64,000 bases of DNA from Bacteroidales bacterium (GCA_016783885.1 JADHVR010000006.1:6539-70538), one strand, 5' to 3'; positions 20,052-35,710 are shown, counted from the stretch's first letter. Numbers and translations are program-made. Notes: a model not told the origin generated them from the sequence alone.

Positions 20052-23000
20052 ATGAACACTGATCTGTCATTTATTACTAACGAAGAAAACCAGAATCTTA
20101 AAGAAAGGTTTGAAGTTCTTATCAAAGACACTTCATTTTTTGATTGCCTTGTAGGATATTTCTACTCAAGTGGGTTTCACGCCATCTACCCATCTCTGGA
20201 AAGCACAGAAAAAATTAGAATCCTGATTGGCATCAGCACAAGCAGACAAACTTTCGAAATGATGGAAAAGGCAAATAAACCAACACGACAAACATTTGAT
20301 TTTTCTCACGCCGAAGCCAAGCAGGAAGTTGAAAATCTTGTTCAAAATGAAATGGAGGTTTCCGAGGACAATAGAAACGTTGAACAAGGCGTCCATAAAT
20401 TTATAGAATGGATTAGAAGCGGCAAGCTGACAATCAGGGCTTATCCGTCACAGAATATCCACGCCAAACTCTATATTATGACATTTAAGGAAGGCGACAG
20501 GGATACCGGCCGCGTTATCACAGGCTCCAGTAATTTCACACAAGCCGGGCTGGTTGACAATCTTGAATTTAACGTGGAACTAAAAAACAGAAGTGACTAT
20601 GATTTTGCGAAAAATAAATTTGAGGAATTATGGAGTAACGCTGTAGATGTCAGCGAAAAATATGCTCAGACCATTCAGGATAAGACCTGGTTGACTCAAA
20701 ATATCACGCCCTACCAGTTATACCTGAAATTTCTCTACGAATATTTCAAGGATGAACTCAGCCAAACAGATGAAGTGTTTGTTAAGTATTTGCCGCAGGA
20801 GTTTAAAAAACTTGAATATCAGGAGCAGGCAGTCTTAAACGCCAAAAAGATACTTTTGGAATATGGCGGCGTTTTTATCTCCGACGTTGTGGGGCTGGGA
20901 AAAACATACATTTCAGCAATGCTGGCGGGTCAACTGGACGGCAGAACGCTTATTATCGCCCCGCCGGTGCTTTTGGAAAAATCAAATCCCGGTTCATGGC
21001 CCAATGTTTTTTCAGACTTCAGAGTGCCGGCAGATTTTGAATCTATCGGTAAACTGGACTACCTGTTGGACATAGGAACAGACAAATACACAAATATTAT
21101 TATAGATGAGGCACACCGTTTTCGAACCGAAACAACAATTTCCTATGAGAAACTGGCGGAAATATGCCGCGGGAAAAGAGTTATCCTGGTAACTGCAACT
21201 CCTTATAACAACACCCCCAAAGATATTCTTAGTCTTCTTAAACTGTTTCAGAAAGCCAAAAAAAGCACCATTCACAATCAACCAGACCTTGAAGCATTCT
21301 TTAACAGGCTGGATAAAAAACTTAAAAACCTGGACAGAAAGAAAGACCGCACCGAATACATAAATAATGTAAGAGCAAATTCACGGGAAATACGCGATAA
21401 AGTTTTGAAGTATTTGATGGTGCGCCGCACCCGAACAGAAATTGAAAAATATTTCAGCAAAGATATAAAAGAACAAGGCCTTAAATTTCCGGATGTTAAA
21501 AAACCGGAGCCATTATTTTATGAACTCAATGACGAAGAAGACGTTATTTTTAATAAGACCATTGACATTATTGCCAATCAATTCAGATACGCACGCTACA
21601 TGCCAATGCTTTATTATGAAGGCAAGATTGATCAGCTTGAAGAGCAATCCCAGCGGAACATGGGTCGGTTTATGAAAATACTGCTGGTCAAACGACTGGA
21701 AAGCAGTTTCTTTGCATTTAGAAATTCAGTGGACAGATTCCTGCATTCCTATGAAATGTTCATAAATGAATTTGATAACGGTAATGTCTATGTAAGTAAA
21801 AAGCATACAAACAAGATATTTGAATTGCTGGAAAACGATGATGACGAAGCAGTCCAGCGATTAATAGATGAAGGCAAGGCGGAGAAATATGAGAGCAAGG
21901 ATTTCAGAGAAGAACTCAAAAAAGACCTAGAGCATGACCATGCCATCTTGATGGAAGTCAAAAAGCTTTGGCAGAACATTAACCGGGACCCGAAGCTCAT
22001 AAAATTCATAAACGAACTGTCAAAAAATAAAGTCTTAAAAAACAATCATCTCATTATTTTTACTGAATCAAAGGAAACAGCCAACTATCTGTCTAACAAT
22101 ATAAATAAAGAATATCCTGACAAGGTTCTTTTATTTACTGGTGGTTCTGGCGAGTCTGTGCGCGATAAAGTGCTTGAAAACTTTGATGCCAGAGCCCGTT
22201 ACCCCAAAGAAGATTATCGAATACTTGTCTCCACCGAAGTCCTGTCGGAAGGCGTGAACCTGCACCGCGCCAATGTGGTGATTAATTATGACATACCCTG
22301 GAACCCGACCCGAATGATGCAGAGAGTAGGACGTATTAACCGGGTTGACACACCTTTTGACGTCATCCATACTTTTAATTTCTTCCCTACAACACAATCC
22401 AATGACCAGATTAAGCTGAAAGAAGCGGCCGAAGGCAAAATCAATGCCTTTTTAACCCTGCTTGGCGGCGATGCGGAACTTTTAACCGAAGGCGAACCCA
22501 TCGGCTCTCACGAACTGTTTGACCGCTTGACTTCAAAGAAAACACTAGAAGGTGAGGATGAGGCAGTGGATAGCGAACTGAAATATCTGCAGGTTATCCG
22601 GGATATCCGCGAAAAGAATGCCGATCTTTTTGAAAAAATAAAACACCTGCCCAAAAAAGCCCGCACAGGCAAAGTAACTCAGGCTTCCAGCCTGAGACTT
22701 AATCGCTCCAGCCAGGATATCTCTGATATAATAATGTATTTTGATCCGGATAAATCAATCGAAATAAAACAGAGAAATTTGCCTCATTGGCAGCAGAAAG
22801 GAACCGCTTATTTCGTTACCTTTAGGCTATATGATTCAATTCCTCAAGAAGTTTCTGAAAGCATCAAAAGAGAGAGAAAACATTGGCTGGAAGCCAACAA
22901 AATCTCCAACCCTTCTGAATTCAAAAAACTGAATCAACACAAAAAGATTGAATACTACCGCCTTTTCTCCAAACGATATGATGATTTATTGGACAATGGT

Positions 23001-23924
23001 CATGGCTCATGCATATTAATGAACAAAAAGTGCAAACAAATTGTTGAGAAGGCATTAAACTATTTCGATGGTGAACGATACTATTTGGATAAATTTGTTG
23101 TCATGCCCAACCATGTCCATGTTATTGTAATTCCGAGAGGTGAATGGACTTTATCAAAGATTACCCATTCCTGGAAATCCTATACAGCCAATGAGTTGAA
23201 TAAAATAACAAATCAAAGAGGATCCATTTGGATGTCCGAATCTTTTGACCATATAATACGAAGCCTTGAGCAGTTAGAAAGAATAAGGCAATATATCGTA
23301 ACTCAAGCTTCCAGCTTGAGCGGTCAACCTCACAGGCAAGATGCCTGTGATAAAAACAACAGTCACAGGCAGGATGCCTGTGTTACTTTTTTTCGCCGTG
23401 GGAAACTGCAAAAATTTTTTATGGCGCAGGTTAAGCAAGCAGCCGAAGAACTGGATTTTATGACAGCGGCAGAGCTGCTTGAAAGCCGACCTGACGAAAA
23501 AAGGAAGCAGCTCCCCGGTGAGATTTATGACCTCCTGGATAAAAACAAGGAAGCTTTTATTATCGCTACAACTGAAGAAATGGCTGAACCCCAAAAAAGA
23601 AGAGGACGCGACAGCGCCGCTAATATCCTGAGAATTCTAAAAGCAACCATGAAAAACACTCAGAAATTTACCGAAGACCAGGAACTTTACCTTAAAAAAG
23701 TATTGACCCAGCTTGAGGAAGGCGGGCTGCCCAAACAAACGGCAAAAAATACATTAAAAGCCCTGGATGCGCTTAAAGATGAACTGGTAAATCCTTTCAA
23801 GGTGCTGGCAGTTCTCCAGACCCATATACCCGAAAAGTTGCTGGAAAGCCATTATGCCGAGCAGAACCCGGCAGTATTCGGAAAGCGTGAAGTAATACTT
23901 TCATTATATTTAGCAGGTGAATAA
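20052..23924 (+). CDS. PLD-nuclease / SNF2-family helicase fusion (defence-associated), interrupted in-frame by a RayT-type element
   Basis: 1290-aa ORF. HKD motif NIHAKLYIM...GSSNFT. SNF2 motifs GLGKTY (I), IIIDEAHRFR (II), VTATPYNN (III), SEGVNLHRANVVINYDIPWNPTRMMQRVGRINR (V-VI). Residues ~875-1112 are a foreign Y1-transposase module. Confidence 0.85.
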   Translation: MNTDLSFITNEENQNLKERFEVLIKDTSFFDCLVGYFYSSGFHAIYPSLESTEKIRILIGISTSRQTFEMMEKANKPTRQTFDFSHAEAKQEVENLVQNEMEVSEDNRNVEQGVHKFIEWIRSGKLTIRAYPSQNIHAKLYIMTFKEGDRDTGRVITGSSNFTQAGLVDNLEFNVELKNRSDYDFAKNKFEELWSNAVDVSEKYAQTIQDKTWLTQNITPYQLYLKFLYEYFKDELSQTDEVFVKYLPQEFKKLEYQEQAVLNAKKILLEYGGVFISDVVGLGKTYISAMLAGQLDGRTLIIAPPVLLEKSNPGSWPNVFSDFRVPADFESIGKLDYLLDIGTDKYTNIIIDEAHRFRTETTISYEKLAEICRGKRVILVTATPYNNTPKDILSLLKLFQKAKKSTIHNQPDLEAFFNRLDKKLKNLDRKKDRTEYINNVRANSREIRDKVLKYLMVRRTRTEIEKYFSKDIKEQGLKFPDVKKPEPLFYELNDEEDVIFNKTIDIIANQFRYARYMPMLYYEGKIDQLEEQSQRNMGRFMKILLVKRLESSFFAFRNSVDRFLHSYEMFINEFDNGNVYVSKKHTNKIFELLENDDDEAVQRLIDEGKAEKYESKDFREELKKDLEHDHAILMEVKKLWQNINRDPKLIKFINELSKNKVLKNNHLIIFTESKETANYLSNNINKEYPDKVLLFTGGSGESVRDKVLENFDARARYPKEDYRILVSTEVLSEGVNLHRANVVINYDIPWNPTRMMQRVGRINRVDTPFDVIHTFNFFPTTQSNDQIKLKEAAEGKINAFLTLLGGDAELLTEGEPIGSHELFDRLTSKKTLEGEDEAVDSELKYLQVIRDIREKNADLFEKIKHLPKKARTGKVTQASSLRLNRSSQDISDIIMYFDPDKSIEIKQRNLPHWQQKGTAYFVTFRLYDSIPQEVSESIKRERKHWLEANKISNPSEFKKLNQHKKIEYYRLFSKRYDDLLDNGHGSCILMNKKCKQIVEKALNYFDGERYYLDKFVVMPNHVHVIVIPRGEWTLSKITHSWKSYTANELNKITNQRGSIWMSESFDHIIRSLEQLERIRQYIVTQASSLSGQPHRQDACDKNNSHRQDACVTFFRRGKLQKFFMAQVKQAAEELDFMTAAELLESRPDEKRKQLPGEIYDLLDKNKEAFIIATTEEMAEPQKRRGRDSAANILRILKATMKNTQKFTEDQELYLKKVLTQLEEGGLPKQTAKNTLKALDALKDELVNPFKVLAVLQTHIPEKLLESHYAEQNPAVFGKREVILSLYLAGE
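22674..23387 (+). mobile_element. REPtron / IS200-IS605-like element (RayT-type Y1 transposase gene bounded by hairpins), nested in-frame in the helicase ORF
   Basis: Left hairpin A is CTCAGGCTTCCAGCCTGAG (22678-22696). Internal ATG at 22734 gives MYFDPDKSIEIKQRNLPHWQQKGTAYFVTFRL...MPNHVHVIVIP (HUH). The right end has hairpin A' CTCAAGCTTCCAGCTTGAG (23302-23320) and two B hairpins, CACAGGCAAGATGCCTGTG (23331-23349) and CACAGGCAGGATGCCTGTG (23364-23382). The span as delimited is 714 nt (238 codons). Confidence 0.75.
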
Positions 23925-23927
23925 AAT

Positions 23928-25277
23928 ATGAAGAATAAAGAATCTCAAACAGTTGAATATAAACAGACCTGGCGAAATGACTGCCTTAAAGCCGTTTCAG
24001 CGTTTGCAAACAGTGATGGCGGCTGTTTATATATAGGGCTGGACGATCAGGGAAATCCCACCAGCTTAAAAAATGAAAAAAAACTGCTTGAAGACATACC
24101 AAATACAATCAGAAACAAACTTGGAATCATTCCCCCTGTTGAACTGAACAAGAAAAACAAGAAAGATATAATCAAGGGCACAGTTGCACCATGTTCTGTT
24201 CCTATTTCTTATAATGGCAAGTATTATATCAGAAGCGGGAGCACTGTGCAGGAATTACAGGGAAAAGAGCTGGCTGATTTTCTTATGAAAAAATCAGGCG
24301 CCACATGGGATGACATTGTTGAAGAAAGAGCAGGTCTTAATGAGATAGACAATGATTCCATAGAAAACTTTAAAAAGTTTGCCGTTGACAGAATTCCATC
24401 AATTATAAAAGAAACCAACAATACTACACTCCTGCAAAAATTAAACCTGATTGATGACAAAGAGTTAAAAAGAGCATCGGTTCTTCTTTTCGGCAACGAG
24501 CCGCAGAAATTTTACCGGCAGTCTGTAATCAGGATTGGCAAATTTCTATCAGATACAGAAATTCAAACAACCGATATTATCAAAGGGAATCTCTTTGTAC
24601 AACTAGAAAGTGCACTGGAAATCCTTCGGACAAAATATCTGGTCAGCAATATCAAATATGAAGGCATTCACCGTCGTGATATTCTTGAATATCCTTATGA
24701 AGCGTTAAGAGAAGCAATCATTAATGCGCTGATTCACCGGGATTATTCAGGGACTTCACAAATCCAGATACGGGTTTATTCTGATAAATTGATAATTATG
24801 AATGAAGGCAAGCTCCCGCCCGAAATTCCCGTAGAAAAATTGAAAACCAACCATTTATCCATTCCAAGAAACACACTCCTTGCTAAAATTTTCTATTATG
24901 CCGGATTTATTGAATCATGGGGGCATGGAACAATAAAAATTATAGAAAACTGTATAAAACAAGGACTGCCGGAACCGGATTTTATCGAAGAATACGGAGT
25001 TATGACGGTTATTTTTTATAAAGATAAATGGAATGAAAAAAATCTGAAAAAATTGGAGTTGAATGAAAGGCAAATTAAAGCGGTGATGTATGTAAAGGAA
25101 AATGGAAAAATTACGAATAATCAATACCAAAAAATATTTAGCGTATCAAAAGCTACAGCTACCAGAAATTTAACTACTTTGGTAAACAAAGGACTTTTAG
25201 TACAATATGGAGAAACAGGAAAAGGAACTTTTTATAAATTAAAGGGCTCACAAACGGCTCAAAGGAATAGTATATGA
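23928..25277 (+). CDS. Schlafen/AlbA_2-domain putative DNA-binding ATPase-like protein with C-terminal wHTH
   Basis: 449 aa. N-terminal ESQTVEYKQTW...AFANSDGGCLYIGLDDQG (AlbA_2). Central YPYEALREAIINALIHRDY (HATPase_c_4-like). C-terminal wHTH NERQIKAVMYVKENGKITNNQYQKIFSVSKATATRNLTTLVNKGLL. Gap of 3 nt to the helicase gene and a 4-nt ATGA overlap with the MTase gene. Confidence 0.75.
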   Translation: MKNKESQTVEYKQTWRNDCLKAVSAFANSDGGCLYIGLDDQGNPTSLKNEKKLLEDIPNTIRNKLGIIPPVELNKKNKKDIIKGTVAPCSVPISYNGKYYIRSGSTVQELQGKELADFLMKKSGATWDDIVEERAGLNEIDNDSIENFKKFAVDRIPSIIKETNNTTLLQKLNLIDDKELKRASVLLFGNEPQKFYRQSVIRIGKFLSDTEIQTTDIIKGNLFVQLESALEILRTKYLVSNIKYEGIHRRDILEYPYEALREAIINALIHRDYSGTSQIQIRVYSDKLIIMNEGKLPPEIPVEKLKTNHLSIPRNTLLAKIFYYAGFIESWGHGTIKIIENCIKQGLPEPDFIEEYGVMTVIFYKDKWNEKNLKKLELNERQIKAVMYVKENGKITNNQYQKIFSVSKATATRNLTTLVNKGLLVQYGETGKGTFYKLKGSQTAQRNSI

Positions 25278-28200
25278 ATAAACAACAGGCACAGCAAATT
25301 ATTAAAGAAACCTTTGAAAACCCTTTTGACAAGGGGCGTTTTACGAATTTCATTAAAAACCTTTTGAACAGTTTTAATAACGCGCCCTTTACTTACCAGG
25401 GAAATTATATCCCCGATGCGTATAAACAATACATCAGGACACTGGAACGTATCGGCAAGTTCAGCGACGGGGAAAACAGCATTGATATCCTTGTCATAAC
25501 CTTACAGAAAGAGACATCCCTTGAACGCGCCCGTACCATGCAGCGTAATTTTATCGCCTGGTACTTAAACGGCAGCCGGGGCGGTGAAATGAAAGATGCC
25601 GCGCTGGCGGCATTTGTCTCTCCCTGTGAAGAAGACTGGCGGTTTTCGCTGGTCAAGATGGATTACAAATTTGAAAAAACCAAAACCGGCCTGTCTGCGT
25701 GCGGAGACGCACAGGCAGGCAGAATAAAGGTGAAGGAAGAATTCACTCCTGCACGGCGTTGGTCGTTTTTGGTGGGCGCCAACGAAAAAAGCCACACCGC
25801 CCAAAGCCGTCTGGTAAATATCCTCGCAAATGATGAACAAGCCCCGACCCAAAAAGAAATCGAAAAAGCCTTTGATATTGAAACTGTCACCAAAGAGTTT
25901 TTCCTCAAATACCGCGAGCTTTTCCTGCACACCAAAGAAGAATTGGACAGGGTTGTTACAAAAGATCCGAGAATCGCGGCGGATTTTGAGGCAAAGGGTG
26001 TTGATACTGTAAACTTTGCTAAGAAGCTATTGGGACAGATTGTGTTTCTCTACTTCCTGCAGAAAAAGGGATGGTTTGGTGTGGAGCGTGATGCGGACTG
26101 GGGTGACGGGTCCAAGCATTTCCTACGTGAACTGTTTGAGAAAAAACACGGAGATTACAAAAATTTCTTCAATGATATTTTAGAGCCGCTTTTTTATGAA
26201 GCCCTACGAACTGGACAGGAGAGAGAACATGAAGACTATTATTACAGCCGGTTCAACTGTAAAATTCCCTTCTTAAACGGCGGACTTTTTGATCCTATCG
26301 GCAATTACGATTGGGTGCATACCGATATAATTATTCCCGACAAGCTCTTTTCCAATAATATAAAAACCAAAGAAGGCGATACCGGAACAGGTATACTGGA
26401 TGTGTTTGACCGCTACAATTTTACCGTTAAAGAGGATGAACCGCTGGAAAAGGAAGTGGCAATCGACCCGGAACTGTTGGGTAAAGCCTACGAGAAATTC
26501 AATGCCATACGCCCGGATAATTATGATGAATTTAGAAAGGCATTAAAGAGCGGCAAAAAAGGCGAGGAAAACAAATTCAATAAAAAATTCGGCGTCTATT
26601 ACACTCCCCGTGAGATTGTGCACTACATGTGCCAGCAGAGCTTGATTAATTACCTGGCAACAAGTGTAACTCAGGCTTCCAGCCTGAATGACCACAGACA
26701 AGATGCCTGTGTTACTATAACCAAGGAAGATATCGAAGCTCTGATACATACCGGCGAGCATGTCAGCGAAAACGAAGCTCGAGTTATACAAGAAGGCAAA
26801 GAGACCAGAACCTATTTCCACAAACTGCCCGAAAGCATCCGCAACAACGCTGCACTGATTGACCAAAAACTGGCAGAAATCACAGTCTGTGACCCGGCAG
26901 TGGGTTCCGGCGCCTTTCCTGTGGGCATGATGAGCGAGATTGTGAGGGCGCGAAATGTGCTGACGACGTTTATTCACAGGCAGGATGCCTGTGCTACTTA
27001 TGAATTCAAACGCCGCTGTATTGAACATTCCCTTTACGGTGTTGACATTGACCCGGGTGCAGTGGAAATTGCAAAACTGCGGCTCTGGCTCTCGCTGATG
27101 GTGGATGAGGATGACATTAAAAATATAAAGCCACTGCCGAATCTGGATTATAAAATCGTCTGTGGAAATTCCCTGCTGGGCGTAGAGAAAGACCTTTTTA
27201 ATGCGCATCTGTTTTCAGAACTGGAAAAAATGAAGCCGCTGTTTTTCAACGAAACCAACCCCACCAAAAAACAGGAATATAAAAAGCAGATTGATAAACT
27301 GATAAGTGAAATAACCAGTGGACATACTGAGTTTGATTTTGAGGTTTATTTTTCAGAGGTGTTTTTGAGCGGAGCGAAATCCGCCTCTGGCGGGCACAAC
27401 AAAGGCGGGTTTGATATGGTGATTGCCAATCCACCGTACATAAAAGAGTATGTTAACAGGAGTGCATTTGATGGACTTAGGAACAGTCCATATTATATGG
27501 GCAAAATGGACATTTGGTATATTTTTGCTTGTAAAGGTATAGACTTGTTGAAGAACAAAGGGGTTCTTTGCTTTATTGCTCAAAACAATTGGGTTACAAG
27601 TTATGGTGCGAAAAAAATGAGAAACAAAGTATTATCTGATAGCAACATATTGCAATTATTGGATTTTGGTGACTATAAAATTTTTGAAAATACAGGTATT
27701 CAGACAATGATTATGCTTTTTCAAAAAATCCAGAATTCGTCCAGCTATAAATTAGATTTTAGAAGATTACATTTTTCTAACAAAGTTAATTTTAGTGATG
27801 TGTTGGTTCTGTTATCAAAAAGTGAAAATGAACATGTTGAATACTTAATACCTGATATTGATAGTGACAACTTGATTGATAAACCAATTGTATTTAGTAA
27901 TAGAGTATTCGAAAAAATACTTAATAAGCTAAAAGAGAAAAATAATTTTATTTTAGATGGGTATCAAGAAGTTGCGCAAGGTATTGTATATCCACAAGAC
28001 TTCCTAAATAAAAAAAATAAAGAGATATTAGGAAATGATTTCAACGTTGGACAAGGTATTTTTGTCTTGAGCAATGAGGAGAAAAACTCAATCCACTTTA
28101 CAGAAAACGAACTCAAATTAATTAAACCGGAATATACCACTAAAGAATCATTCAAGTATAATGCTAATCCCAGAAATAAATATTGGGTGATTTATACCGA

Positions 28201-28753
28201 TTCCAGTTTTAAGAATTTGAATAAAATAAATAAATACCCAAACATCAAAAAACATCTTGACAGATTCCGAAAAGTAATCACTTCTGATAATAAACCGTAT
28301 GGTTTGCATAGGGCAAGAGACGAAAAATTTTTCACAGGTGAAAAAATCATCTCAGTTAGGAAGTGTGCAGAACCAACATTCACATATACAGATTTTGACT
28401 GTTACGTTTCAGCAACTTTTTACGTAATCAAGTCCCAAAGAATTGATAATAAATTTTTGACAGCCCTTTTAAATTCAAAGCTTATTGCTTTTTGGCTAAG
28501 GCATAAGGGAAAAATGCAAGGAAATAATTACCAAATTGATAAAGAACCGCTTCTAAGTATACCAATTGTCAAACCGGGAAAAAACAAACAGGTACCAATA
28601 ATAAACTTGGTTGAAAAAATTCTTGCGAAAAAAGAGTTTAATAAAGATACCGACGATGAGGAGCGAGAAATCGACCAGCTTGTCTACAAGCTCTACAACC
28701 TCACCCCGGAAGAAATCAAAATCGTTGAAGGAGAAAATGAAAACGCTGATTGA
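25274..28753 (+). CDS. Eco57I-family (type IIG-like) N6-adenine DNA methyltransferase with TaqI_C-like target-recognition domain
   Basis: 1159 aa. AdoMet motif VCDPAVGSGAFP, catalytic motif VIANPPYIKEY, C-terminal NNYQIDKEPLLSIPI region. Contains three short in-frame palindromic insertions. Confidence 0.85.
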   Translation: MNKQQAQQIIKETFENPFDKGRFTNFIKNLLNSFNNAPFTYQGNYIPDAYKQYIRTLERIGKFSDGENSIDILVITLQKETSLERARTMQRNFIAWYLNGSRGGEMKDAALAAFVSPCEEDWRFSLVKMDYKFEKTKTGLSACGDAQAGRIKVKEEFTPARRWSFLVGANEKSHTAQSRLVNILANDEQAPTQKEIEKAFDIETVTKEFFLKYRELFLHTKEELDRVVTKDPRIAADFEAKGVDTVNFAKKLLGQIVFLYFLQKKGWFGVERDADWGDGSKHFLRELFEKKHGDYKNFFNDILEPLFYEALRTGQEREHEDYYYSRFNCKIPFLNGGLFDPIGNYDWVHTDIIIPDKLFSNNIKTKEGDTGTGILDVFDRYNFTVKEDEPLEKEVAIDPELLGKAYEKFNAIRPDNYDEFRKALKSGKKGEENKFNKKFGVYYTPREIVHYMCQQSLINYLATSVTQASSLNDHRQDACVTITKEDIEALIHTGEHVSENEARVIQEGKETRTYFHKLPESIRNNAALIDQKLAEITVCDPAVGSGAFPVGMMSEIVRARNVLTTFIHRQDACATYEFKRRCIEHSLYGVDIDPGAVEIAKLRLWLSLMVDEDDIKNIKPLPNLDYKIVCGNSLLGVEKDLFNAHLFSELEKMKPLFFNETNPTKKQEYKKQIDKLISEITSGHTEFDFEVYFSEVFLSGAKSASGGHNKGGFDMVIANPPYIKEYVNRSAFDGLRNSPYYMGKMDIWYIFACKGIDLLKNKGVLCFIAQNNWVTSYGAKKMRNKVLSDSNILQLLDFGDYKIFENTGIQTMIMLFQKIQNSSSYKLDFRRLHFSNKVNFSDVLVLLSKSENEHVEYLIPDIDSDNLIDKPIVFSNRVFEKILNKLKEKNNFILDGYQEVAQGIVYPQDFLNKKNKEILGNDFNVGQGIFVLSNEEKNSIHFTENELKLIKPEYTTKESFKYNANPRNKYWVIYTDSSFKNLNKINKYPNIKKHLDRFRKVITSDNKPYGLHRARDEKFFTGEKIISVRKCAEPTFTYTDFDCYVSATFYVIKSQRIDNKFLTALLNSKLIAFWLRHKGKMQGNNYQIDKEPLLSIPIVKPGKNKQVPIINLVEKILAKKEFNKDTDDEEREIDQLVYKLYNLTPEEIKIVEGENENAD
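25690..25719. repeat. Imperfect palindrome inside the MTase ORF (encodes ..LSACGDAQAG..)
   Basis: CCTGTCTGCGTGCGGAGACGCACAGGCAGG. About 12 pairs are possible, counting G-T wobbles. Shares CACAGGCAGG with the B hairpins. Confidence 0.55.
26666..26716. repeat. Miniature A+B hairpin element (51 nt, 17 codons) in-frame in the MTase ORF
   Basis: GTAACTCAGGCTTCCAGCCTGAATGACCACAGACAAGATGCCTGTGTTACT reproduces the left hairpin A and right hairpin B of the 22674-23387 element without the transposase. Translates as VTQASSLNDHRQDACVT. Confidence 0.8.
26975..26993. repeat. Solo B hairpin in-frame in the MTase ORF
   Basis: CACAGGCAGGATGCCTGTG, identical to 23364-23382. Translates as HRQDAC. Confidence 0.8.
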
Positions 28754-31130: not shown

Positions 31131-34100
31131 TTATTGAATAATAAACCTTTCTACATGAATTATATCATTATTTATCAGTTTTAAATAATATAAACCTTTG
31201 GTTAATTCAGAAAGATTTAACTTCTTAATGTATTTTTCCGAAGTGCAATTAACAGACTCATTATAAACTACCTGTCCGAAACTATTCAGTACATACATTT
31301 TAAAATTACCCTTTAATCTCCTGATTGTAATATAAAAAGTTCCGTTTGAAGGATTTGGTGATAAAGTAATATTGTAATTATTTTGTTTTTCAGGAATATA
31401 AGTACATTCATCAAAAGTAACAGTAATTGAATCACTGCCCTGACAATTATTACTATTAGTTACAATCACAGAAAATGTTTCAGAGCCAATTCCAACTCCT
31501 GTTGAATCAACGGTAATCATTTGAGTGGTTTCTCCTGTTGACCAAATATATGTAGCTCCGGGATTTCCTGCATCCAATGTTATTGTATTATAACAGCAAA
31601 TAGAAGTATCATTTCCCAGATCAACAACAGGAACCGGGGCAATGGTCAATGTCATATCATCGCTCAAATCACCTCCCTGTCCGTCATAAGCGGTTAATGT
31701 AAGTATTACTGATCCTGCATTAATATCTTCGATACCCGGTGTATAAACGGGATTTAAAATAGTATTATCGTCATAAGTTCCTGTACCGGAAGTTGTCCAT
31801 AGTAATGAAGTATAATTTGCAGCATTTCCTGAGCATGTAAAAGTGTATCCTGCACAAATAGTAGCATCTGCTCCTGCATTAACGGTTAATATTGATGCCG
31901 GAGGCAGTACAATATAATCAATCCAGCCACAATCACTTCCATTCGAAACGGACCAATCTTTAATATATACCCATTCGAAAGTATGTTCACCTGCTGATAC
32001 AGGATAAGCAGCCTTAGACCAACTTTCATTTCCCGACCATTTTTCTTGTATAATATTATCAACTAAAAAAACCAAATAATCATAATCTTCCTCTGAAGAC
32101 ACTTTTTTGTAAAATGAAATAGTATCATCAGCCATTACTTCGTAAGTAAGAGAAAGTATTGAAGATTGCATATCTCCTATGGCTCCTGATTTTGCACAAT
32201 ATGTACCTTCATAAGCATTTGAACTTGTAATTGTCCAGGGGCTGTCGCCACCGAAAGTCCAGTTAAACTGACCAAAACCTCCTGTTTCCCAATCTTCCAC
32301 AATCAAGCCTATGGTTTCGTAATAATAATTTAGCGCAGTATATAAACCCGATGAGAATATATAACAAAAGTCAACCGTTGTCCCAATCTGGGCTGAAGCA
32401 TCAACTGTTACATTAAAAACAGCATAATCAGTTTCGCATGAGGGAAGTGTCCCGAAATTATAAGTAGCATTATTAACAGTAACATCTCCGTTTGTTGTTG
32501 ACAAATTCCCGATAGAATTGATAGCATCGCTGCTTCCTGCGTTTGTTGTTGTAATAATAATATCTGCTGTTTCCCCTGGATCTAACCTGCCATTATTATT
32601 GCCTGTCGGATCAGAAACAAGCAATGCGCCAAATTCTATATTCGGAGCATGGGCTTCAATAATAAAATTGCTTATCCAATTATTTGTCCCATCTGTGGCT
32701 GTTACATCAAATAAAACATTATGTCCGTCAGGAATTAATTCTGAAACATTAAAAGCAAAACCATCTGCTATTGAAATTATTTCATTTGAAGGTATATTTC
32801 CATAATATTCGATATTATCAGTAATGGTAATAAATTCATCATCAGTACTTAATTCAACTGTAATATTATTTGCCTGTTGTGCCCCGACATTCTGCATCCC
32901 TAATGACAGAAGAATTGATTCGCCATAATCCATCAAACCATTTCCATTACCACTGTTATCATTAATTTCATAAGATTGCTGAACAATATAAGGACCATCT
33001 GAGTTTACGGTAATATAACTTTCTTTTATTTTAGTATCTGTACAACTGTCATTACTAACTGTTAATGTAACATCAAATATTCCGGGAACTTCATAAACAA
33101 TATTTACAGGATTTATTTCATTCGATACCGAAGGAGTACCACCATCGAATATCCATTCCCATGAATTCACCGTACCTGTTGAAAGATCAGTAAAATTAAC
33201 GCTTTCACCAGGGGATAATACTGTAACATCGGCAGTAAAATCAGCATAAACATCATTATCGTAAATAATAATATCGTCGATATACATCATATTTCCATGT
33301 CCGTTGTACGATTCGAACATAATTTTTACATCGGCATAACCTGCCCACGGGCTAAGGTCGATAGTATGGCAGTCGTCGCCATAACCTGCACCACACCAGT
33401 CGCCGGGAGATGAAGGAACAAACTCACTTGTAGTTGGTGAGTGTGTGGCAAAATCTTCACCTGCTTCAAATATTCTTTCCCAGCTTGTTCCGCAATCGGT
33501 AGAAATATAAATAATAACAGAATCCTTTCGTGTAGAGTTATAAATAGCATAAGCATGAGTGAATTTGAAATTTACAGTAGTATGTCCTGCAAAATTCAGC
33601 AAAGGCGTAATCAACCTGTCTCTTTGTCCTGTTGAAGTGTATTCGTAGAAGTTCATCCATGCAGCTTTACGGCTCGGCAAATTACCCGAAAGCTTATAAT
33701 ATCCGTCCCAGGTAATATTTCCGTCAGGATTTTCAATGGTCCAGTAATCTTTAAAAGTACCCACTTCAAAGGTCTCAGCAAAAGGCAACGTCAATCCGCC
33801 GGAATTAATCAAATTTGATTTTGTGATGGTATTACTTCCATTAGCATTTGAAACTGTTAATGTAACGGAATATACTTTTGCTTCATTAAACTGAACTTGC
33901 GGGTTTTGGGAATTAGCATTAGTACTGTTAACAAAAGTTACCGTATTAGGAACAAAATACCATTCCCATTCATCAGGAGTATTTAAAGACAGATCAACAA
34001 ATGAAAAAGTTTCTCCGACACAGGCATTTGTTTCATCCACATCAAAATCTGCTACGGGTAAAGCATCATTAGTAACAGTAATATAGTCTGTTTTGGTAAT

Positions 34101-35447
34101 TGTGTTAGAACCATTCCAGTTAGTAGCTGTTAAAGTTACCGAATAAGTTCCTGGTGTATTGTAAAAAATGTTTTCTGGGTTTTGAACATCAGAGGAAGAA
34201 GGACTGCCACCAGGAAATGTCCATGACCAGGAATTTGGTGTATGTTCTGTAAGGTCGGTAAAACAAACACAACTGCCGGTTAAAACAGTTGTAATATTAG
34301 CGGTAAAATCGGCGACCGGATCCTCGGGTGGTTTAACACCTGTAAGAGCAGCCTGGTAATTAGAATAATTATGTGTTCCCGGATGTAAATTCGATACAAA
34401 AAAATATCCGTTATATAAACCGCCCCAACCCCAGTTAAAATGAAAATGGGTATCATTTTGATAACCGTCGCAAACAAAGGCATGTCCGCCGCTACCAGAA
34501 CCACTGTAATACATAGGCATTAAAGCATCTAATTCGGTTCTTAAAAGATTTTCCCATTGCGAAGTTGAATAATCATCTTTATACTCAAGTGATGCTCCGG
34601 ACGAATATCCGAAATAATTCATTAATGCCGGACCTACGCTTTCTGAATAAGCTCCCGAACCATTCGGGCCATACATCATTTCTACAGCTACTCCGCAATG
34701 ATAACCGGCTTGTGCAATTTCAAAATTATGGTCTGTAATATAATCCGGCATATCGTCCCAGTTATAAAAAGTAGCTCCGAAATCCGCAAATAAATAACCA
34801 TAAGAAGAATTATAACCATGCGAACCTGTTCCCTGCGGAGGATAATTGTGATATTTCATCACCTGCACCATAGCCACAGCTACACAACCGACCCTGGCAC
34901 GTCCGCAAGCGCCGCTGGGATCATTAGGGCATAATTCATTGTAAAAACAATCCTGGTCCCACATTGTGTTTACTAATGGTTCAACATTGTTCAAGGGCGA
35001 TTTGTCAGGTTTTTTACTATATTTCTCCCATGCTTTACTGATTTTCGAATTGCTTTTTAGCTGATTATCTTTAACATAAATTATTTGTTCTTTATAATCT
35101 TCTATCCATTCGGTAAAAGCAGGCGGTTGATCGGAATTATCATAAGTGCCTTCAAATGAATAACCAAGAACAGGATAAACATTATCTTCGGCTGAAATTA
35201 TCACAAAACCATTATCACCGATTATATTAAAAACATAAATAACAGGAGTTCCTGCCTCACTGCTTATTATAATTTCATTTGCAAATACGATATTATTGTA
35301 TTTAACATCCCTAACCTGGTTAACTCTCTCGTAAAAAAGATTTTTACCAATTAGCTTTGCCTTTTCTACAGAAACTTCAGCAGAAAAAACCATATTGCCG
35401 GCAAATAGCAATATTAAAAACAACGAACTTAAATTTTTCATTTTCAT
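31131..35447 (-). CDS. Large multidomain peptidase C10 family protease (PKD-like repeats, beta-rich modules, T9SS CTD)
   Basis: 1438 aa. Signal peptide, VGCVAVAMVQVMKYH (Cys), GGHAFVCDGYQ (His), HFNWGWGG. Several PKD-like repeats (ADFTA..V..G..V.FTD.S...P.SW.W.F.GG.P). C-terminal T9SS sorting domain (LSPNPSNGTFYI...GLYYLKL...RFIIQ). Confidence 0.85.
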   Translation of the reverse strand: MKMKNLSSLFLILLFAGNMVFSAEVSVEKAKLIGKNLFYERVNQVRDVKYNNIVFANEIIISSEAGTPVIYVFNIIGDNGFVIISAEDNVYPVLGYSFEGTYDNSDQPPAFTEWIEDYKEQIIYVKDNQLKSNSKISKAWEKYSKKPDKSPLNNVEPLVNTMWDQDCFYNELCPNDPSGACGRARVGCVAVAMVQVMKYHNYPPQGTGSHGYNSSYGYLFADFGATFYNWDDMPDYITDHNFEIAQAGYHCGVAVEMMYGPNGSGAYSESVGPALMNYFGYSSGASLEYKDDYSTSQWENLLRTELDALMPMYYSGSGSGGHAFVCDGYQNDTHFHFNWGWGGLYNGYFFVSNLHPGTHNYSNYQAALTGVKPPEDPVADFTANITTVLTGSCVCFTDLTEHTPNSWSWTFPGGSPSSSDVQNPENIFYNTPGTYSVTLTATNWNGSNTITKTDYITVTNDALPVADFDVDETNACVGETFSFVDLSLNTPDEWEWYFVPNTVTFVNSTNANSQNPQVQFNEAKVYSVTLTVSNANGSNTITKSNLINSGGLTLPFAETFEVGTFKDYWTIENPDGNITWDGYYKLSGNLPSRKAAWMNFYEYTSTGQRDRLITPLLNFAGHTTVNFKFTHAYAIYNSTRKDSVIIYISTDCGTSWERIFEAGEDFATHSPTTSEFVPSSPGDWCGAGYGDDCHTIDLSPWAGYADVKIMFESYNGHGNMMYIDDIIIYDNDVYADFTADVTVLSPGESVNFTDLSTGTVNSWEWIFDGGTPSVSNEINPVNIVYEVPGIFDVTLTVSNDSCTDTKIKESYITVNSDGPYIVQQSYEINDNSGNGNGLMDYGESILLSLGMQNVGAQQANNITVELSTDDEFITITDNIEYYGNIPSNEIISIADGFAFNVSELIPDGHNVLFDVTATDGTNNWISNFIIEAHAPNIEFGALLVSDPTGNNNGRLDPGETADIIITTTNAGSSDAINSIGNLSTTNGDVTVNNATYNFGTLPSCETDYAVFNVTVDASAQIGTTVDFCYIFSSGLYTALNYYYETIGLIVEDWETGGFGQFNWTFGGDSPWTITSSNAYEGTYCAKSGAIGDMQSSILSLTYEVMADDTISFYKKVSSEEDYDYLVFLVDNIIQEKWSGNESWSKAAYPVSAGEHTFEWVYIKDWSVSNGSDCGWIDYIVLPPASILTVNAGADATICAGYTFTCSGNAANYTSLLWTTSGTGTYDDNTILNPVYTPGIEDINAGSVILTLTAYDGQGGDLSDDMTLTIAPVPVVDLGNDTSICCYNTITLDAGNPGATYIWSTGETTQMITVDSTGVGIGSETFSVIVTNSNNCQGSDSITVTFDECTYIPEKQNNYNITLSPNPSNGTFYITIRRLKGNFKMYVLNSFGQVVYNESVNCTSEKYIKKLNLSELTKGLYYLKLINNDIIHVERFIIQ

Positions 35448-35677
35448 AATATTGTAAAATTAAATATTAACATAATCCGGGAATGAATTCCCGGGAGTAT
35501 TTTTAAAAGTCTCAAATTCATCCAAAATAATTGTTTACGTATATTACAAGACAAATGATAAAAAAATATGGTTGCAAGTTGTGGGCAATAATTAATGCTT
35601 TACGGTCTGAGGTTGTCTTAAAAGCCTGAAAAACTTGATAGCGAAGCGAATCAATATAATTCATCCGATAACTTGCC

Positions 35678-35710
35678 AAACCTCACAGGTTTGGCAAACC
35701 TGTGAGGTTT
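35678..35710. repeat. Perfect 15-bp-arm palindrome (REP-like)
   Basis: AAACCTCACAGGTTT-GGC-AAACCTGTGAGGTTT. Shares the 10-mer ACCTCACAGG with the right end of the nested RayT element (23328-23337). Confidence 0.85.

What the first reader, a model, noticed from the sequence alone, without database searches (positions are those of the whole stretch)
22674..23387. Complete RayT/IS200-like Y1 transposase gene with terminal hairpins nested in-frame inside the PLD-SNF2 helicase ORF
Seen directly: the 1290-aa helicase ORF reads through a ~714-nt segment with no stop codon. That segment has its own ATG (22734, in the host frame). It encodes a typical REP-associated tyrosine transposase N-terminus (RNLPHWQQKGTAYFVTFRL) and HUH motif (PNHVHVIV).

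The segment starts with hairpin A (CTCAGGCTTCCAGCCTGAG). It ends with hairpin A' (CTCAAGCTTCCAGCTTGAG) followed by two copies of hairpin B (CACAGGCA(A/G)GATGCCTGTG). The hairpins translate as the repeated peptides VTQASSL and HRQDAC. Host helicase sequence resumes as VTFFRRGKLQKFF.

REP/RayT systems and IS200/IS605 elements are normally extragenic or disruptive. An in-frame, stop-free insertion of a whole transposase into a defence gene is unusual; Rickettsia palindromic elements are a partial precedent. Three readings are possible. The host protein may tolerate a 238-aa insert. The transposase may be expressed as a fusion or from the internal ATG. Or the element may be removed at the DNA or RNA level.
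Basis: partly seen in the sequence, partly recalled or inferred. Interest (0 to 1): 0.8.

Follow-up and report, generated by a model that had tools for sequence, protein, structure and literature searches.

The report
Transposase gene living in-frame inside genes
A small mobile element (a RayT tyrosine transposase flanked by palindromic REP hairpins) sits inside a defence helicase gene without breaking its reading frame, and related elements do the same in many genes and phyla, including essential ones, which I did not find described in the literature I could search.

Summary
Window 22674..23387 (714 nt, 238 codons) is a near-complete RayT (TnpA_REP) gene, bounded by GTAAC-hairpin A and hairpin A'-B-B-GTTAC. 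It is read through, stop-free, by the 1290-aa PLD-SNF2 helicase ORF.

It is a mobile element, not an old domain fusion or an artefact:
- Most orthologues (~1063 aa) lack the insert.
- At least 12 diverged helicase alleles carry it at the same site and in frame.
- RayT divergence is incongruent with helicase divergence.
- Some alleles carry only solo hairpins at the site.
- The identical gene occurs in three independent assemblies.
- The RayT core is under purifying selection (dN/dS about 0.1).
- AlphaFold2 models it as a confident separate domain between low-confidence linkers.

In a scan of 185,579 species genomes, 59 of the 80 best RayT relatives lie in frame inside large ORFs. Hosts include DNA methylases, HsdR, PriA, XseA, DinG/YoaA-like helicases, CarB, ValS, Dtd and DnaE. 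Most copies have REP hairpins on both sides, and most lack their own start and stop codons.

In-frame intragenic REPs and RayT subclass 2.4 are known. I found no description of in-frame nesting of the RayT gene itself. How the host proteins cope, and whether the fused RayT is active, remains inferred.

The parts
20052..23924 (+). Host ORF: PLD-nuclease / SNF2-type helicase (1290 aa), first gene of a helicase / SLFN-AlbA_2+HATPase_c_4 / Eco57I-type methylase island
   Evidence: Orthologues are mostly about 1063 aa and 85-94% identical across phyla. The helicase-methylase pairing recurs in L003, L009 and L011.
22674..23387 (+). Nested element: 714 nt, stop-free in the host frame. Layout is GTAAC foot, hairpin A, 37-nt leader, RayT, GTAAC, hairpin A', hairpin B, hairpin B, TTAC foot.
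   Evidence: Absent from the closest empty allele L009, where 33 nt of linker (QNHAIAGALIT) occupy the site.
22674..22696 (+). Left end: 5' foot GTAAC plus REP hairpin A (stem 7-8 bp, loop TTCCA)
   Evidence: The foot GT[AG][AG] precedes 91 of 120 A-type hairpins in related loci.
22734..23297 (+). RayT (TnpA_REP, Y1 HUH transposase) coding part, from its retained ATG to ...RQYI. HUH = HVH at 23112-23120; catalytic-type Tyr at 23292-23294.
   Evidence: Pfam and NCBIfam. Profile best PDB match is 4ER8 TnpA_REP, with the HUH and Y motifs aligned. dN/dS about 0.1 over 173 gap-free codons. AF2 pLDDT 80-96.
23298..23320 (+). Second GTAAC foot plus hairpin A' (2 compensating changes relative to A). 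It replaces the last ~5 residues (EDNPK) of the RayT C-terminal motif.
23331..23349 (+). REP hairpin B, copy 1 (loop AAGAT)
23364..23387 (+). REP hairpin B, copy 2 (loop AGGAT), plus 3' foot TTAC(T). Followed by a T-run, so it also scores as terminator-like.
   Evidence: (3' foot [CTA][TC]AC)
25274..28753 (+). Neighbouring Eco57I/TaqI_C-type methylase ORF carrying in-frame solo REPs of the same family
26666..26715 (+). Solo REP doublet (GTAAC, A, 4 nt, B, TTAC), translated VTQASSLNDHRQDACV. It sits at the methylase site where L020 and L021 carry a full RayT.
26975..26997 (+). Solo hairpin B plus CTAC foot, translated HRQDACAT. It sits at the methylase site where L017 and L038 carry a full RayT.
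25689..25720 (+). Third hairpin type (C), an in-frame 10-aa insertion LSACGDAQAG unique to this methylase among those aligned

Best explanation
The segment is an autonomous-looking REPtron. It is a RayT (TnpA_REP, subclass 2.4-like Y1 HUH transposase) bounded by its cognate 'double-foot' REP hairpins (5' GTAA-A ... B-TTAC 3'). It lives inside a protein-coding gene as a translationally open insertion.

Shown:
- The element, its hairpins and its frame are as described.
- It is absent from most orthologues.
- It is present at the same linker site in at least 12 diverged helicase alleles.
- Its divergence does not track that of the helicase.
- RayT is under purifying selection.
- Solo REP doublets occupy the same sites in other alleles and in the neighbouring methylase.
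- The same arrangement is the majority state for this RayT clade across phyla and across at least 14 host gene families.

Inferred:
1. The helicase is translated through the element. RayT becomes an extra, separately folded domain in a flexible linker, and the host protein stays functional.
2. RayT is therefore expressed from the host gene's transcription and translation signals. In this lineage it may also be made from its retained ATG at 22734.
3. RayT acts on the flanking hairpins in single-stranded DNA, as known RayT and IS200-type enzymes do. This moves the unit or its solo REPs to new sites.
4. Only insertions in the open frame of a tolerant loop survive, which gives the observed pattern.
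5. Loss occurs by recombination between the flanking direct REP doublets and leaves an in-frame solo doublet.
6. Spread among alleles of the same gene occurs by re-insertion at a preferred site, or by homologous recombination after horizontal transfer of the highly conserved host gene.
For: Presence/absence at one site:
- Of the 120 best helicase homologues, most are about 1063 aa with '...KKARTAKQNNAVAGALITYFRRGKL'.
- Eight carry Y1_Tnp in frame at exactly this point.
- P0006 has hairpin A only and P0045 has A+B only.
- Four more filled alleles come from named genomes of Thermodesulfobacteriota, Nitrospirae, Calditrichaceae and Bacteroidales.

Mobility:
- Empty alleles nest among filled ones. 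WIN-P0005 are 95% identical and P0001-P0006 are 95% identical.
- L003 versus L015: backbone pS 0.80 and pN 0.163, but RayT pS 0.19 and pN 0.023.
- L005 versus WIN, L001, L004 and L013 shows the opposite: backbone pS 0.39-0.47, RayT pS 0.65-0.70.
- A 90%-identical free-standing copy (L215) still carries 15 nt of the helicase left junction.

Functional constraint on RayT:
- The core is 173 gap-free codons with dN/dS 0.04-0.33.
- HUH and Tyr are invariant.

Hairpins are real REPs:
- The same 19-mer B persists between alleles whose synonymous sites are saturated.
- Across 53 nested loci, 50 have hairpins on both sides. Loops (TTCCA, A[AG]GAT) and feet (GT[AG][AG], [CTA][TC]AC) are conserved while stems differ by paired changes.
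- B plus foot occurs in at least 120 metagenome contigs.

Generality:
- 59 of 80 genome loci are nested in stop-free frames of 436-1605 aa.
- Hosts are confirmed on both sides of the insert by Pfam and NCBIfam. DnaE, CarB, PriA, XseA, ValS and Dtd score above the curated cut-offs.
- 54 of the best 150 cluster representatives in a 1.84-billion-protein library are at least 400 aa.
- 34 of 38 nested copies lack a Met at the RayT N-terminus.

Structure: the RayT domain has pLDDT 80-96 and both flanks are below 50.

Not an artefact: identical gene in three assemblies.
Against: - No expression, proteomic or activity data exist. That the fusion protein is made, that the helicase works with the insert, and that RayT is active in this context are all inferences.
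- The AF2 model has low overall confidence (pTM 0.38), so domain packing is unknown.
- Within the 64-kb window all seven hairpins lie in two adjacent horizontally mobile genes and none is intergenic. Activity in this particular genome is therefore not shown, and the element may have arrived with the island.
- The window copy lacks the last residues of the conserved YIxDNP motif.
- The right junction differs between alleles (some retain GALITY, others do not). The history therefore includes deletions or several insertion events that I cannot resolve.
- For MAG-derived essential-gene hosts, a second intact gene copy cannot be excluded.
- The incongruence could come from recombination among helicase alleles rather than transposition.
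Confidence: 0.7

Rival explanations
1. Conditional removal. The element is tolerated because it is taken out before the protein has to work. Either RayT excises it precisely from single-stranded DNA in part of the population, giving a reversible on/off switch of the defence gene, or an unrecognised RNA- or protein-level splicing step removes it.
For: - IS200/IS605-type Y1 enzymes excise precisely (established knowledge of the family).
- Empty alleles 95% identical to filled ones coexist in sister samples of the same study.
- Nesting in essential genes such as DnaE and ValS would be easier to understand if removal were possible.
Against: - The empty site is not the filled site minus the element: 33 nt of linker differ.
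- No intron family matches in Rfam.
- There is no Hint/intein domain, and the junction residues (K|V ... C|V) are not intein-like.
- Strict maintenance of frame, absence of stops, and loss of RayT's own start and stop in most copies are what selection on the translated fusion would produce. Removal before translation would not need them.
Confidence: 0.12
2. Exapted domain. The HUH/Y1 domain has been recruited as a working part of the helicase, giving a third nuclease-like module in a defence protein. The flanking palindromes are only linker remnants.
For: - HUH domains are fused to helicases in relaxases, Rep proteins and Helitrons (established knowledge).
- RayT is under purifying selection within the helicase.
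- Many hosts are DNA-handling enzymes.
Against: - Most orthologues, including 95%-identical ones, lack it.
- Insert and backbone histories disagree.
- The hairpins are conserved at the DNA level with covarying stems and canonical REP feet.
- The same clade is nested in CarB, ValS, Dtd and a UDPGP-like protein, where an ssDNA nuclease has no obvious role.
Confidence: 0.1
3. Dead gene. The insertion inactivated the helicase, and the open frame is incidental or short-lived.
For: - Disrupted versions exist. P0123 is frameshifted after RayT. P0003/L001 is cut by an ISL3 fragment. Several 'free' genome loci look like out-of-frame nested copies.
- Hairpin B plus a T-run is terminator-like.
Against: - At least 12 helicase alleles and 59 of 80 loci overall keep the frame open on both sides for hundreds of codons.
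- The helicase C-terminal part downstream of the insert stays conserved among filled alleles.
- The chance of correct strand, correct frame and no stop is a few per cent per event.
Confidence: 0.05
4. Assembly or binning artefact that joins a transposase to a helicase.
For: The source is a metagenome assembly, and repeats can cause chimeras.
Against: - Identical gene on 133-kb contigs from three independent assemblies at 55-103x.
- Same architecture in NCBI, JGI, ENA and Logan records from many samples.
Confidence: 0.01

Closest known systems
REPtrons: RayT / TnpA_REP with flanking REPs, especially subclass 2.4 of Quentin et al. 2018 (PMC6006769) = RAYT group 4 of Bertels et al. 2017 (PMC5581495)
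   Same: - Y1 HUH enzyme with NHVH and a YIxDNP-type Tyr motif, about 190-200 aa.
- Best solved relative is E. coli TnpA_REP, 4ER8.
- Flanked by GC-rich hairpins carrying a 5' GT[AG][AG] foot and a 3' [CT][TC]AC foot, the 'double foot' described for subclass 2.4.
- That subclass is already known to tolerate in-frame REP insertions inside tnpA itself.
- Wide, patchy distribution (Cyanobacteria, Bacteroidetes and others).
   Different: - Here the whole tnpA_REP gene with its REPs lies inside another gene, in frame. It has no stop codon and, in most relatives, no start codon of its own.
[quoted passage not shown]
- The feet are GTAA/TTAC here rather than GTAG/CTAC.
- RayTs are described as single-copy, mostly vertically inherited domesticated genes. 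This one moves relative to its host gene.
Intragenic in-frame REPs and Rickettsia palindromic elements (Di Nocera et al. 2013, PMC3733652, and the RPE papers it cites)
   Same: - Short palindromic repeats inserted in frame in ORFs that probably still encode functional proteins.
- Enriched in DNA replication and repair genes.
- Most abundant in Opitutus terrae (Verrucomicrobia) and R. conorii.
- The solo A+B and B units in the window's methylase, and in P0006 and P0045, are of this kind.
   Different: - Those elements are 20-150 nt and encode no enzyme.
- Here the insertion is a 714-nt unit encoding the transposase thought to mobilise such repeats.
- Solo repeats sit at the very sites that hold the full unit in other alleles, which links the two phenomena.
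IS200 (minimal IS200/IS605-family insertion sequence)
   Same: About 700 nt, with a single Y1 transposase gene, subterminal hairpins at both ends, and site-preferring insertion.
   Different: - The transposase is RayT-type (YIxDNP), not the Y---Q type of IS200.
- The ends carry repeated REP doublets and 5-nt inverted feet.
- The element is open for translation from outside.
- Copy number in the genome is unknown.
Inteins with homing endonucleases
   Same: - A selfish element inserted in frame at a fixed site of conserved genes (polymerase, helicases, synthetases).
- Expressed only as part of the host polypeptide.
- Patchy presence among near-identical alleles, with element phylogeny incongruent with the host gene.
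   Different: - No Hint domain and no splice-junction residues.
- Nothing indicates protein splicing, so the insert apparently stays in the mature protein.
- The enzyme is an ssDNA HUH transposase rather than a double-strand homing endonuclease.
IStrons (IS200/IS605 or IS607 element fused to a group I intron; PMC4227781)
   Same: A Y1-type transposon that makes insertion into genes harmless to the host.
   Different: Harmlessness there comes from RNA self-splicing. Here there is no ribozyme match, and harmlessness apparently comes from an open reading frame.

Membership tests
RayT / TnpA_REP (Y1 HUH transposase) | Y1_Tnp fold with an HUH motif and a single catalytic Tyr in a C-terminal helix | tested here: met
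   - Pfam PF01797, 33.8 bits against a cut-off of 23.
- HVH at 23112-23120 and Tyr at 23292-23294, both invariant in alignments.
- The profile hits 4ER8 with both motifs aligned, E 0.003.
RayT / TnpA_REP (Y1 HUH transposase) | Scores as NCBIfam equivalog REP_Tyr_transpos (NF047646) | tested here: not met
   58.5 bits for the insert, below the cut-off of 80. A nested relative (L058) just reaches 80.0. It is the best-scoring family but below the equivalog level.
RayT subclass 2.4 (Quentin 2018) | Motifs NH[IFV]H, WQ and YIxNNP; about 194 aa; no C-terminal extension | tested here: inconclusive
   - NHVH is present.
- The window has W-M and relatives have WQ, WH or WM.
- Relatives have YI[EK]DNP and stop a few residues later. 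The window copy is cut after YI.
- I did not place it in their tree.
REPtron | tnpA_REP flanked by REP hairpins with a GT[AG]G-type foot ('double foot' in subclass 2.4) | tested here: met
   GTAAC-hairpin A on the left and hairpin B-GTTAC on the right. Feet are conserved in related loci. The variant tetranucleotides are GTAA and TTAC.
REPtron | Cognate REPs dispersed in many, mainly extragenic, copies in the same genome | not testable with these tools
   Only 64 kb of the genome is available. It holds 7 hairpins, all inside two ORFs and none intergenic. The exact B plus foot is in at least 120 metagenome contigs from other organisms.
Domesticated single-copy RAYT (Bertels 2017) | Vertical inheritance congruent with the host | tested here: not met
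   Insert and host-gene divergence are incongruent in both directions. A free-standing derivative sits in another context.
IS200/IS605 insertion sequence | TnpA of the IS200 type (Y---Q motif), subterminal hairpins, several identical copies, demonstrated transposition | tested here: not met
   The Y motif is RayT-type. NCBIfam transpos_IS200 scores 22.9 bits against a cut-off of 55. Hairpins are present. Copy number and activity are not testable here.
Intein | Hint domain; Cys/Ser/Thr at the N-terminal junction; His-Asn plus Cys/Ser/Thr at the C-terminal junction | tested here: not met
   No Hint-family Pfam hit. The junctions read ...TGK|VTQ... and ...DAC|VTF....
IStron / intron-borne transposon | Group I or group II intron RNA around the transposase | tested here: not met
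   An Rfam E-value scan of 22000-24000 found only a chance miRNA match, E 0.52.
Intragenic REP / RPE-like in-frame palindromic insertion | Short palindromic repeat, length a multiple of three, stop-free, inserted in a variable part of an otherwise conserved ORF | tested here: met
   Solo A+B (26666-26715), solo B (26975-26997) and hairpin C (25689-25720) are insertions relative to aligned methylases. The RayT-bearing unit exceeds this definition because it encodes an enzyme.

The most novel reading that the evidence does not exclude
In-frame REPtrons are a distinct, widespread class of selfish element. They are transposons whose transposase has given up its own start and stop codons and is made only as an internal domain of a host protein.

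They occupy fixed loop sites in conserved genes, including DnaE, ValS, CarB, PriA, XseA and restriction-modification/defence enzymes. They spread among alleles in a homing-like way and decay to the in-frame solo REPs already known as 'intragenic REPs'.

Being tethered to fork- and ssDNA-associated host enzymes may give the ssDNA transposase access to its substrate.
Probability: 0.45. Interest if true: 0.9.

Novelty: new variant of a known kind. Interest (0 to 1): 0.82.

Why it matters
- New strategy for a transposon. If the fusion proteins are made and work, this is a way for a transposon to live in gene-dense genomes. It becomes invisible to the reading frame and borrows the host gene's expression signals. 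The effect parallels inteins and IStrons but needs no splicing.
- Origin of intragenic REPs. It would explain the long-noted in-frame REPs in replication and repair genes, which would be solo remnants of these units.
- Re-reading of earlier surveys. Long 'fusion' proteins that earlier RayT surveys discarded would be the typical state of one clade.
- Annotation. Stand-alone RayTs are already being named 'type I restriction enzyme R subunit' by transfer from such fusions.
- Defence biology. It raises the question of whether filled and empty alleles of a widely transferred helicase-methylase system differ in activity.
- Protein engineering. It offers natural examples of roughly 200-residue domain insertions apparently tolerated in DnaE, ValS, CarB and PriA.

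Tried and rejected
- Rfam scan for introns or ribozymes around the element: nothing.
- Single-sequence search of RayT against PDB sequences: only noise. The profile search was needed.
- Foldseek of the whole model against PDB: returned only SNF2-type helicases, as expected, and said nothing about the insert.
- tblastn against PLSDB plasmids: one distant stand-alone transposase, uninformative.
- Genic versus intergenic context of solo hairpin B in metagenome contigs: ambiguous. Most hits come from GC-rich genomes where long stop-free frames are common. I only use the count (at least 120 contigs) and the fact that about half have no frame of at least 200 aa over them.
- Formal pair-covariation test on A-type hairpins: circular with respect to '% paired', because sequences were picked for pairing. 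I rely on the variety of stems, the conserved loop and the unselected foot.
- Promoter scan: no convincing promoter for the internal ATG, and counts are at chance level.
- Eight literature searches and one that failed on syntax: no description of RayT genes nested in frame.
- Intein, IStron and artefact readings: considered and rejected for the reasons given in the membership table.

Full report
**1. The observation**

ORF 20052..23924 (+) encodes 1290 aa with PLDc_2, SNF2-related and Helicase_C domains, and a Y1_Tnp domain at aa ~993-1085. The segment 22674..23387 is 714 nt (238 codons) without a stop in the host frame. The ATG at 22734 is in that frame.

- A at 22678-22696.
- A' at 23302-23320.
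- B at 23331-23349 and 23364-23382.

Neither hairpin pattern occurs in any of 100 shuffles of the window. As single-stranded DNA the two ends fold far better than shuffles, with z = -4.4 and -7.0.

NCBIfam's best model for the insert is REP-associated tyrosine transposase (58.5 bits, below the equivalog cut-off of 80), ahead of IS200 transposase. A profile of the clade finds E. coli TnpA_REP (4ER8) as the best solved relative, with the HUH and Tyr motifs aligned.

Free-standing relatives end a few residues after YIxDNPK. The nested copy is therefore essentially full length, but in the window hairpin A' follows ...RQYI directly and replaces about five residues.

**2. Insertion, not an old fusion or an artefact**

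The helicase family is strikingly conserved, 85-94% identity in MAGs labelled Nitrospirae, Deltaproteobacteria, Flavobacteriaceae, Marinimicrobia and Scalinduaceae. Most members are about 1063 aa.

In the alignment, the empty site reads ...PKKARTAK-QNNAVAGAL-ITYFRRGKL, a variable linker. Eight of the 120 best hits carry the RayT domain at exactly this point. P0006 has only 'VIQASSL' (hairpin A) and P0045 only 'VTHASSL...HKQDAC' (A+B).

DNA of seven filled alleles, one empty allele and two alleles with hairpins only shows the following:
- The left junction is constant: ...ACAGCAAAA|GTAACTCAGGC.
- The right end is ...GCCTGTGTTAC.
- Hairpins range from perfect (window, L005, L006) to decayed (L004, L007, L008, L011).
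- Relative to the closest empty allele, the element replaces 33 nt of linker.

The identical 1290-aa gene lies on 133-kb contigs of three separate assemblies at 55-103x. The closest empty allele (95% identity) comes from a sister sample in a different genomic context.

**3. The insert moves relative to its host gene**

Protein identities already disagree. P0012 is 71% identical to the window in the backbone but 74% in the insert. P0004 is 84% in the backbone but 67% in the insert.

Codon-level comparison of 12 filled alleles makes this clear:
- L003 versus L015: backbone synonymous difference 0.80 (saturated) and non-synonymous 0.163, but RayT 0.19 and 0.023.
- L001 versus L012: backbone synonymous difference 0.57, RayT 0.12.
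- L005 is close to the window, L001, L004 and L013 in the backbone (0.39-0.47) but far in RayT (0.65-0.70).

Either the element re-inserts at this site or it is exchanged by recombination among alleles. It is not simply co-inherited.

A 90%-identical RayT (P0121/L215) is free-standing between unrelated genes. It still carries 15 nt identical to the helicase left junction, so it derives from a nested copy.

**4. RayT and the hairpins are under selection**

The RayT core (LPHW...YI) is 173 codons without a single gap in 12 nested copies. Its dN/dS is 0.04-0.33, typically near 0.1. HUH and Tyr are invariant.

Hairpin B is the same 19-mer in alleles whose synonymous sites are saturated.

**5. The wider pattern**

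A scan of one genome per species (185,579 species) with the clade alignment returned at least 593 confirmed relatives, and the 80 best were fetched.

In 59 of the 80, the RayT match lies in a stop-free frame of 436-1605 aa. Except where a contig end cuts the frame, there are hundreds of codons on both sides. Several of the remaining 21 look like out-of-frame nested copies.

Clustering the flanking protein parts and scanning representatives gave these hosts:

| Host family | Loci |
|---|---|
| Eco57I/TaqI_C methylases | 19 |
| PLD-SNF2 helicase | 5, plus a sixth locus (L077) that clustered with them but was not scanned |
| PriA | 5 |
| UDPGP-like protein | 5 |
| XseA | 4 |
| HsdR-type restriction subunits | at least 5, in three forms |
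| DinG/YoaA-like helicases | 3 |
| CarB | 3 |
| DUF1156 proteins | 2 |
| MmeI-type enzyme, N6_N4 methylase, DnaE, ValS, Dtd | 1 each |

DnaE, CarB, PriA, XseA, ValS and Dtd score above NCBIfam's curated equivalog cut-offs. Five of the six match in two stretches split by the insert; Dtd gives a single stretch, upstream of its insert.

Of the 53 nested loci in which both ends of RayT could be located, 50 have hairpins on both sides. In 25, the two sides share at least 14 identical nucleotides, that is, direct repeats of a REP doublet.

The hairpins have constant loops (TTCCA; A[AG]GAT) and many different stems that stay complementary. An unselected foot is also conserved: GT[AG][AG] 5' of A-type in 91 of 120, and [CTA][TC]AC 3' of B-type in 87 of 135. 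This is the 'double foot' REP described for RayT subclass 2.4 (PMC6006769).

Loop enrichment is clear: 128 TTCCA-loop hairpins against 6-20 for control loops in the same ~1 Mb.

Thirty-four of 38 nested copies with a recognisable N-terminal YFDP motif have no Met before it. Only the helicase lineage keeps its ATG.

RayT nearest neighbours share the host family in 38 of 53 cases. The element therefore mostly stays with, or returns to, one gene family and occasionally jumps.

An independent census of 1.84 billion cluster representatives gave 511 clusters at E <= 1e-30. Of the best 150, 54 are at least 400 aa with an internal match.

**6. The neighbouring methylase**

ORF 25274..28753 carries three in-frame elements:
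- A solo A+B doublet (26666-26715).
- A solo B (26975-26997).
- A third hairpin type (25689-25720).

The two solo sites are exactly those where other methylases carry the full doublet-RayT-doublet unit: L020 and L021 at the first, L017 and L038 at the second. One aligned methylase (L009) is empty at the first site; at the second site L009 carries the same solo HRQDAC, and among those aligned only the distant L003 lacks a hairpin there.

This fits loss of RayT by recombination between the flanking direct doublets. It links the nested units to the 'intragenic REPs' reported for Opitutus terrae, Rickettsia and others, notably in replication and repair genes (PMC3733652).

**7. Structure**

AlphaFold2 on aa 240-1290 with 89 aligned sequences gave a weak overall model (mean pLDDT 64.8, pTM 0.38). 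The RayT part has block means of 80-96. The segments on both sides, including the hairpin-encoded peptides, are below 50.

This is consistent with a separately folded domain in a flexible linker. It does not show how the domain packs against the helicase.

**8. Mechanism: what is shown and what is inferred**

Shown:
- The anatomy of the element.
- Recurrence at one site, and presence/absence polymorphism.
- Incongruent histories of insert and host gene.
- Constraint on RayT and on the hairpins.
- Generality of in-frame nesting, and absence of own start and stop codons in most copies.

Inferred:
- The host protein is made through the element and remains functional.
- RayT is expressed in this way and acts on the flanking REPs in single-stranded DNA, as E. 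coli TnpA_REP and IS200/IS605 TnpA do.
- Survival of only in-frame, loop-located insertions produces the pattern.
- Solo doublets are deletion products.

Alternatives (removal before function, exapted domain, dead gene, artefact) are weighed in the rival list.

No intron RNA and no intein features were found.

One oddity may bear on site choice. The helicase target CGCACAG(G)CAAA resembles the 5' arm of hairpin B.

**9. Comparison with what is known, and novelty**

Already described:
- RayT/REP systems, and subclass 2.4 with double-foot REPs and in-frame REPs inside tnpA (PMC6006769).
- Group 4 RAYTs (PMC5581495).
- In-frame intragenic REPs (PMC3733652).

[quoted passage not shown] Eight full-text searches found no account of RayT genes nested in frame in host genes. 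The library lacks most subscription-journal papers, so prior description cannot be excluded.

I rate it a new variant of a known kind. The parts are known, but the lifestyle is apparently undescribed: a transposase gene carried as an open-frame internal domain of host proteins, including essential ones, across many phyla.

**10. Verdict**

Interest 0.82.

Noticed in passing
window 25274..28753 (26666-26715, 26975-26997, 25689-25720): The Eco57I-type methylase two genes downstream carries three in-frame palindromic insertions: solo A+B, solo B, and a third hairpin type translated LSACGDAQAG. The first two sit at sites where other methylases hold a full RayT.
   Followed up: yes
window 23364-23393: The last hairpin B is followed by TTACTTTTTTT and is flagged as terminator-like inside the helicase ORF. 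In alleles with TAT instead of TTT at the next codon, the T-run is broken.
   Followed up: partly
window 22660-22673 and L009 12636-12650: The helicase sequence just left of the insertion point (CGCACAG(G)CAAA, coding ARTG/AK) resembles the 5' arm and loop of hairpin B (CACAGGCAAGA). It may relate to site preference. Unexplained.
   Followed up: no
L215 2283-2320 (GCA_044343465.1): A free-standing RayT, 90% identical to the window copy, keeps 15 nt identical to the helicase left junction upstream of GTAAC-hairpin A. It takes its stop codon from new flanking DNA.
   Followed up: partly
L003 12620-12860 (P0106, GCA_018262915.1): Upstream of its nested RayT, this helicase has a tandem array of about nine 24-27-nt units derived from the GTAAC-hairpin A end. 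They are translated VTQASQPI/VTHASQPE, which adds about 70 residues.
   Followed up: no
P0005 and P0045, helicase aa ~79 (alignment A1 columns 180-215): Other helicase alleles carry further in-frame hairpin-derived insertions near the N-terminus: 'LSAC...SAQAD' and 'LSACLPVRRMQTGNAKAGSLSPKPLTGFEPLSG'. The family has several insertion-tolerant sites.
   Followed up: no
window 23274..23594 (-) and 26543..27208 (-): Long antisense ORFs contain TGILPV and QAGSLSY peptides, which are reverse-strand translations of hairpins B and A. Such spurious ORFs could seed misleading protein families.
   Followed up: no
P0155, P0192: Stand-alone RayT proteins of about 200 aa are named 'type I restriction enzyme R subunit' by JGI. 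This is probably annotation transfer from HsdR proteins that carry a nested RayT.
   Followed up: partly
window 31131..35447 (-): A 1438-aa Peptidase_C10/PKD protein has a Por_Secre_tail (type IX secretion) sorting domain. This points to an FCB-group (Bacteroidota-like) host. The window is 36% G+C, whereas the REP hairpins are G+C-rich.
   Followed up: partly
window 35674-35705: Two overlapping perfect palindromes (TGCCAAACCTCACAGGTTTGGCAAACCTGTGA) lie in the intergenic region beside the peptidase gene. They are unrelated in sequence to hairpins A and B.
   Followed up: no
L001 13543-13710: In GCA_002897895.1 the filled helicase allele is cut short at its C-terminus by a DDE_Tnp_ISL3 fragment.
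   Followed up: no
L096, L112, L115, L116, L124, L136, L164 (metagenome contigs): The exact hairpin B plus foot often occurs as two copies in opposite orientation, about 50-100 nt apart. This is the REPIN-like arrangement.
   Followed up: no
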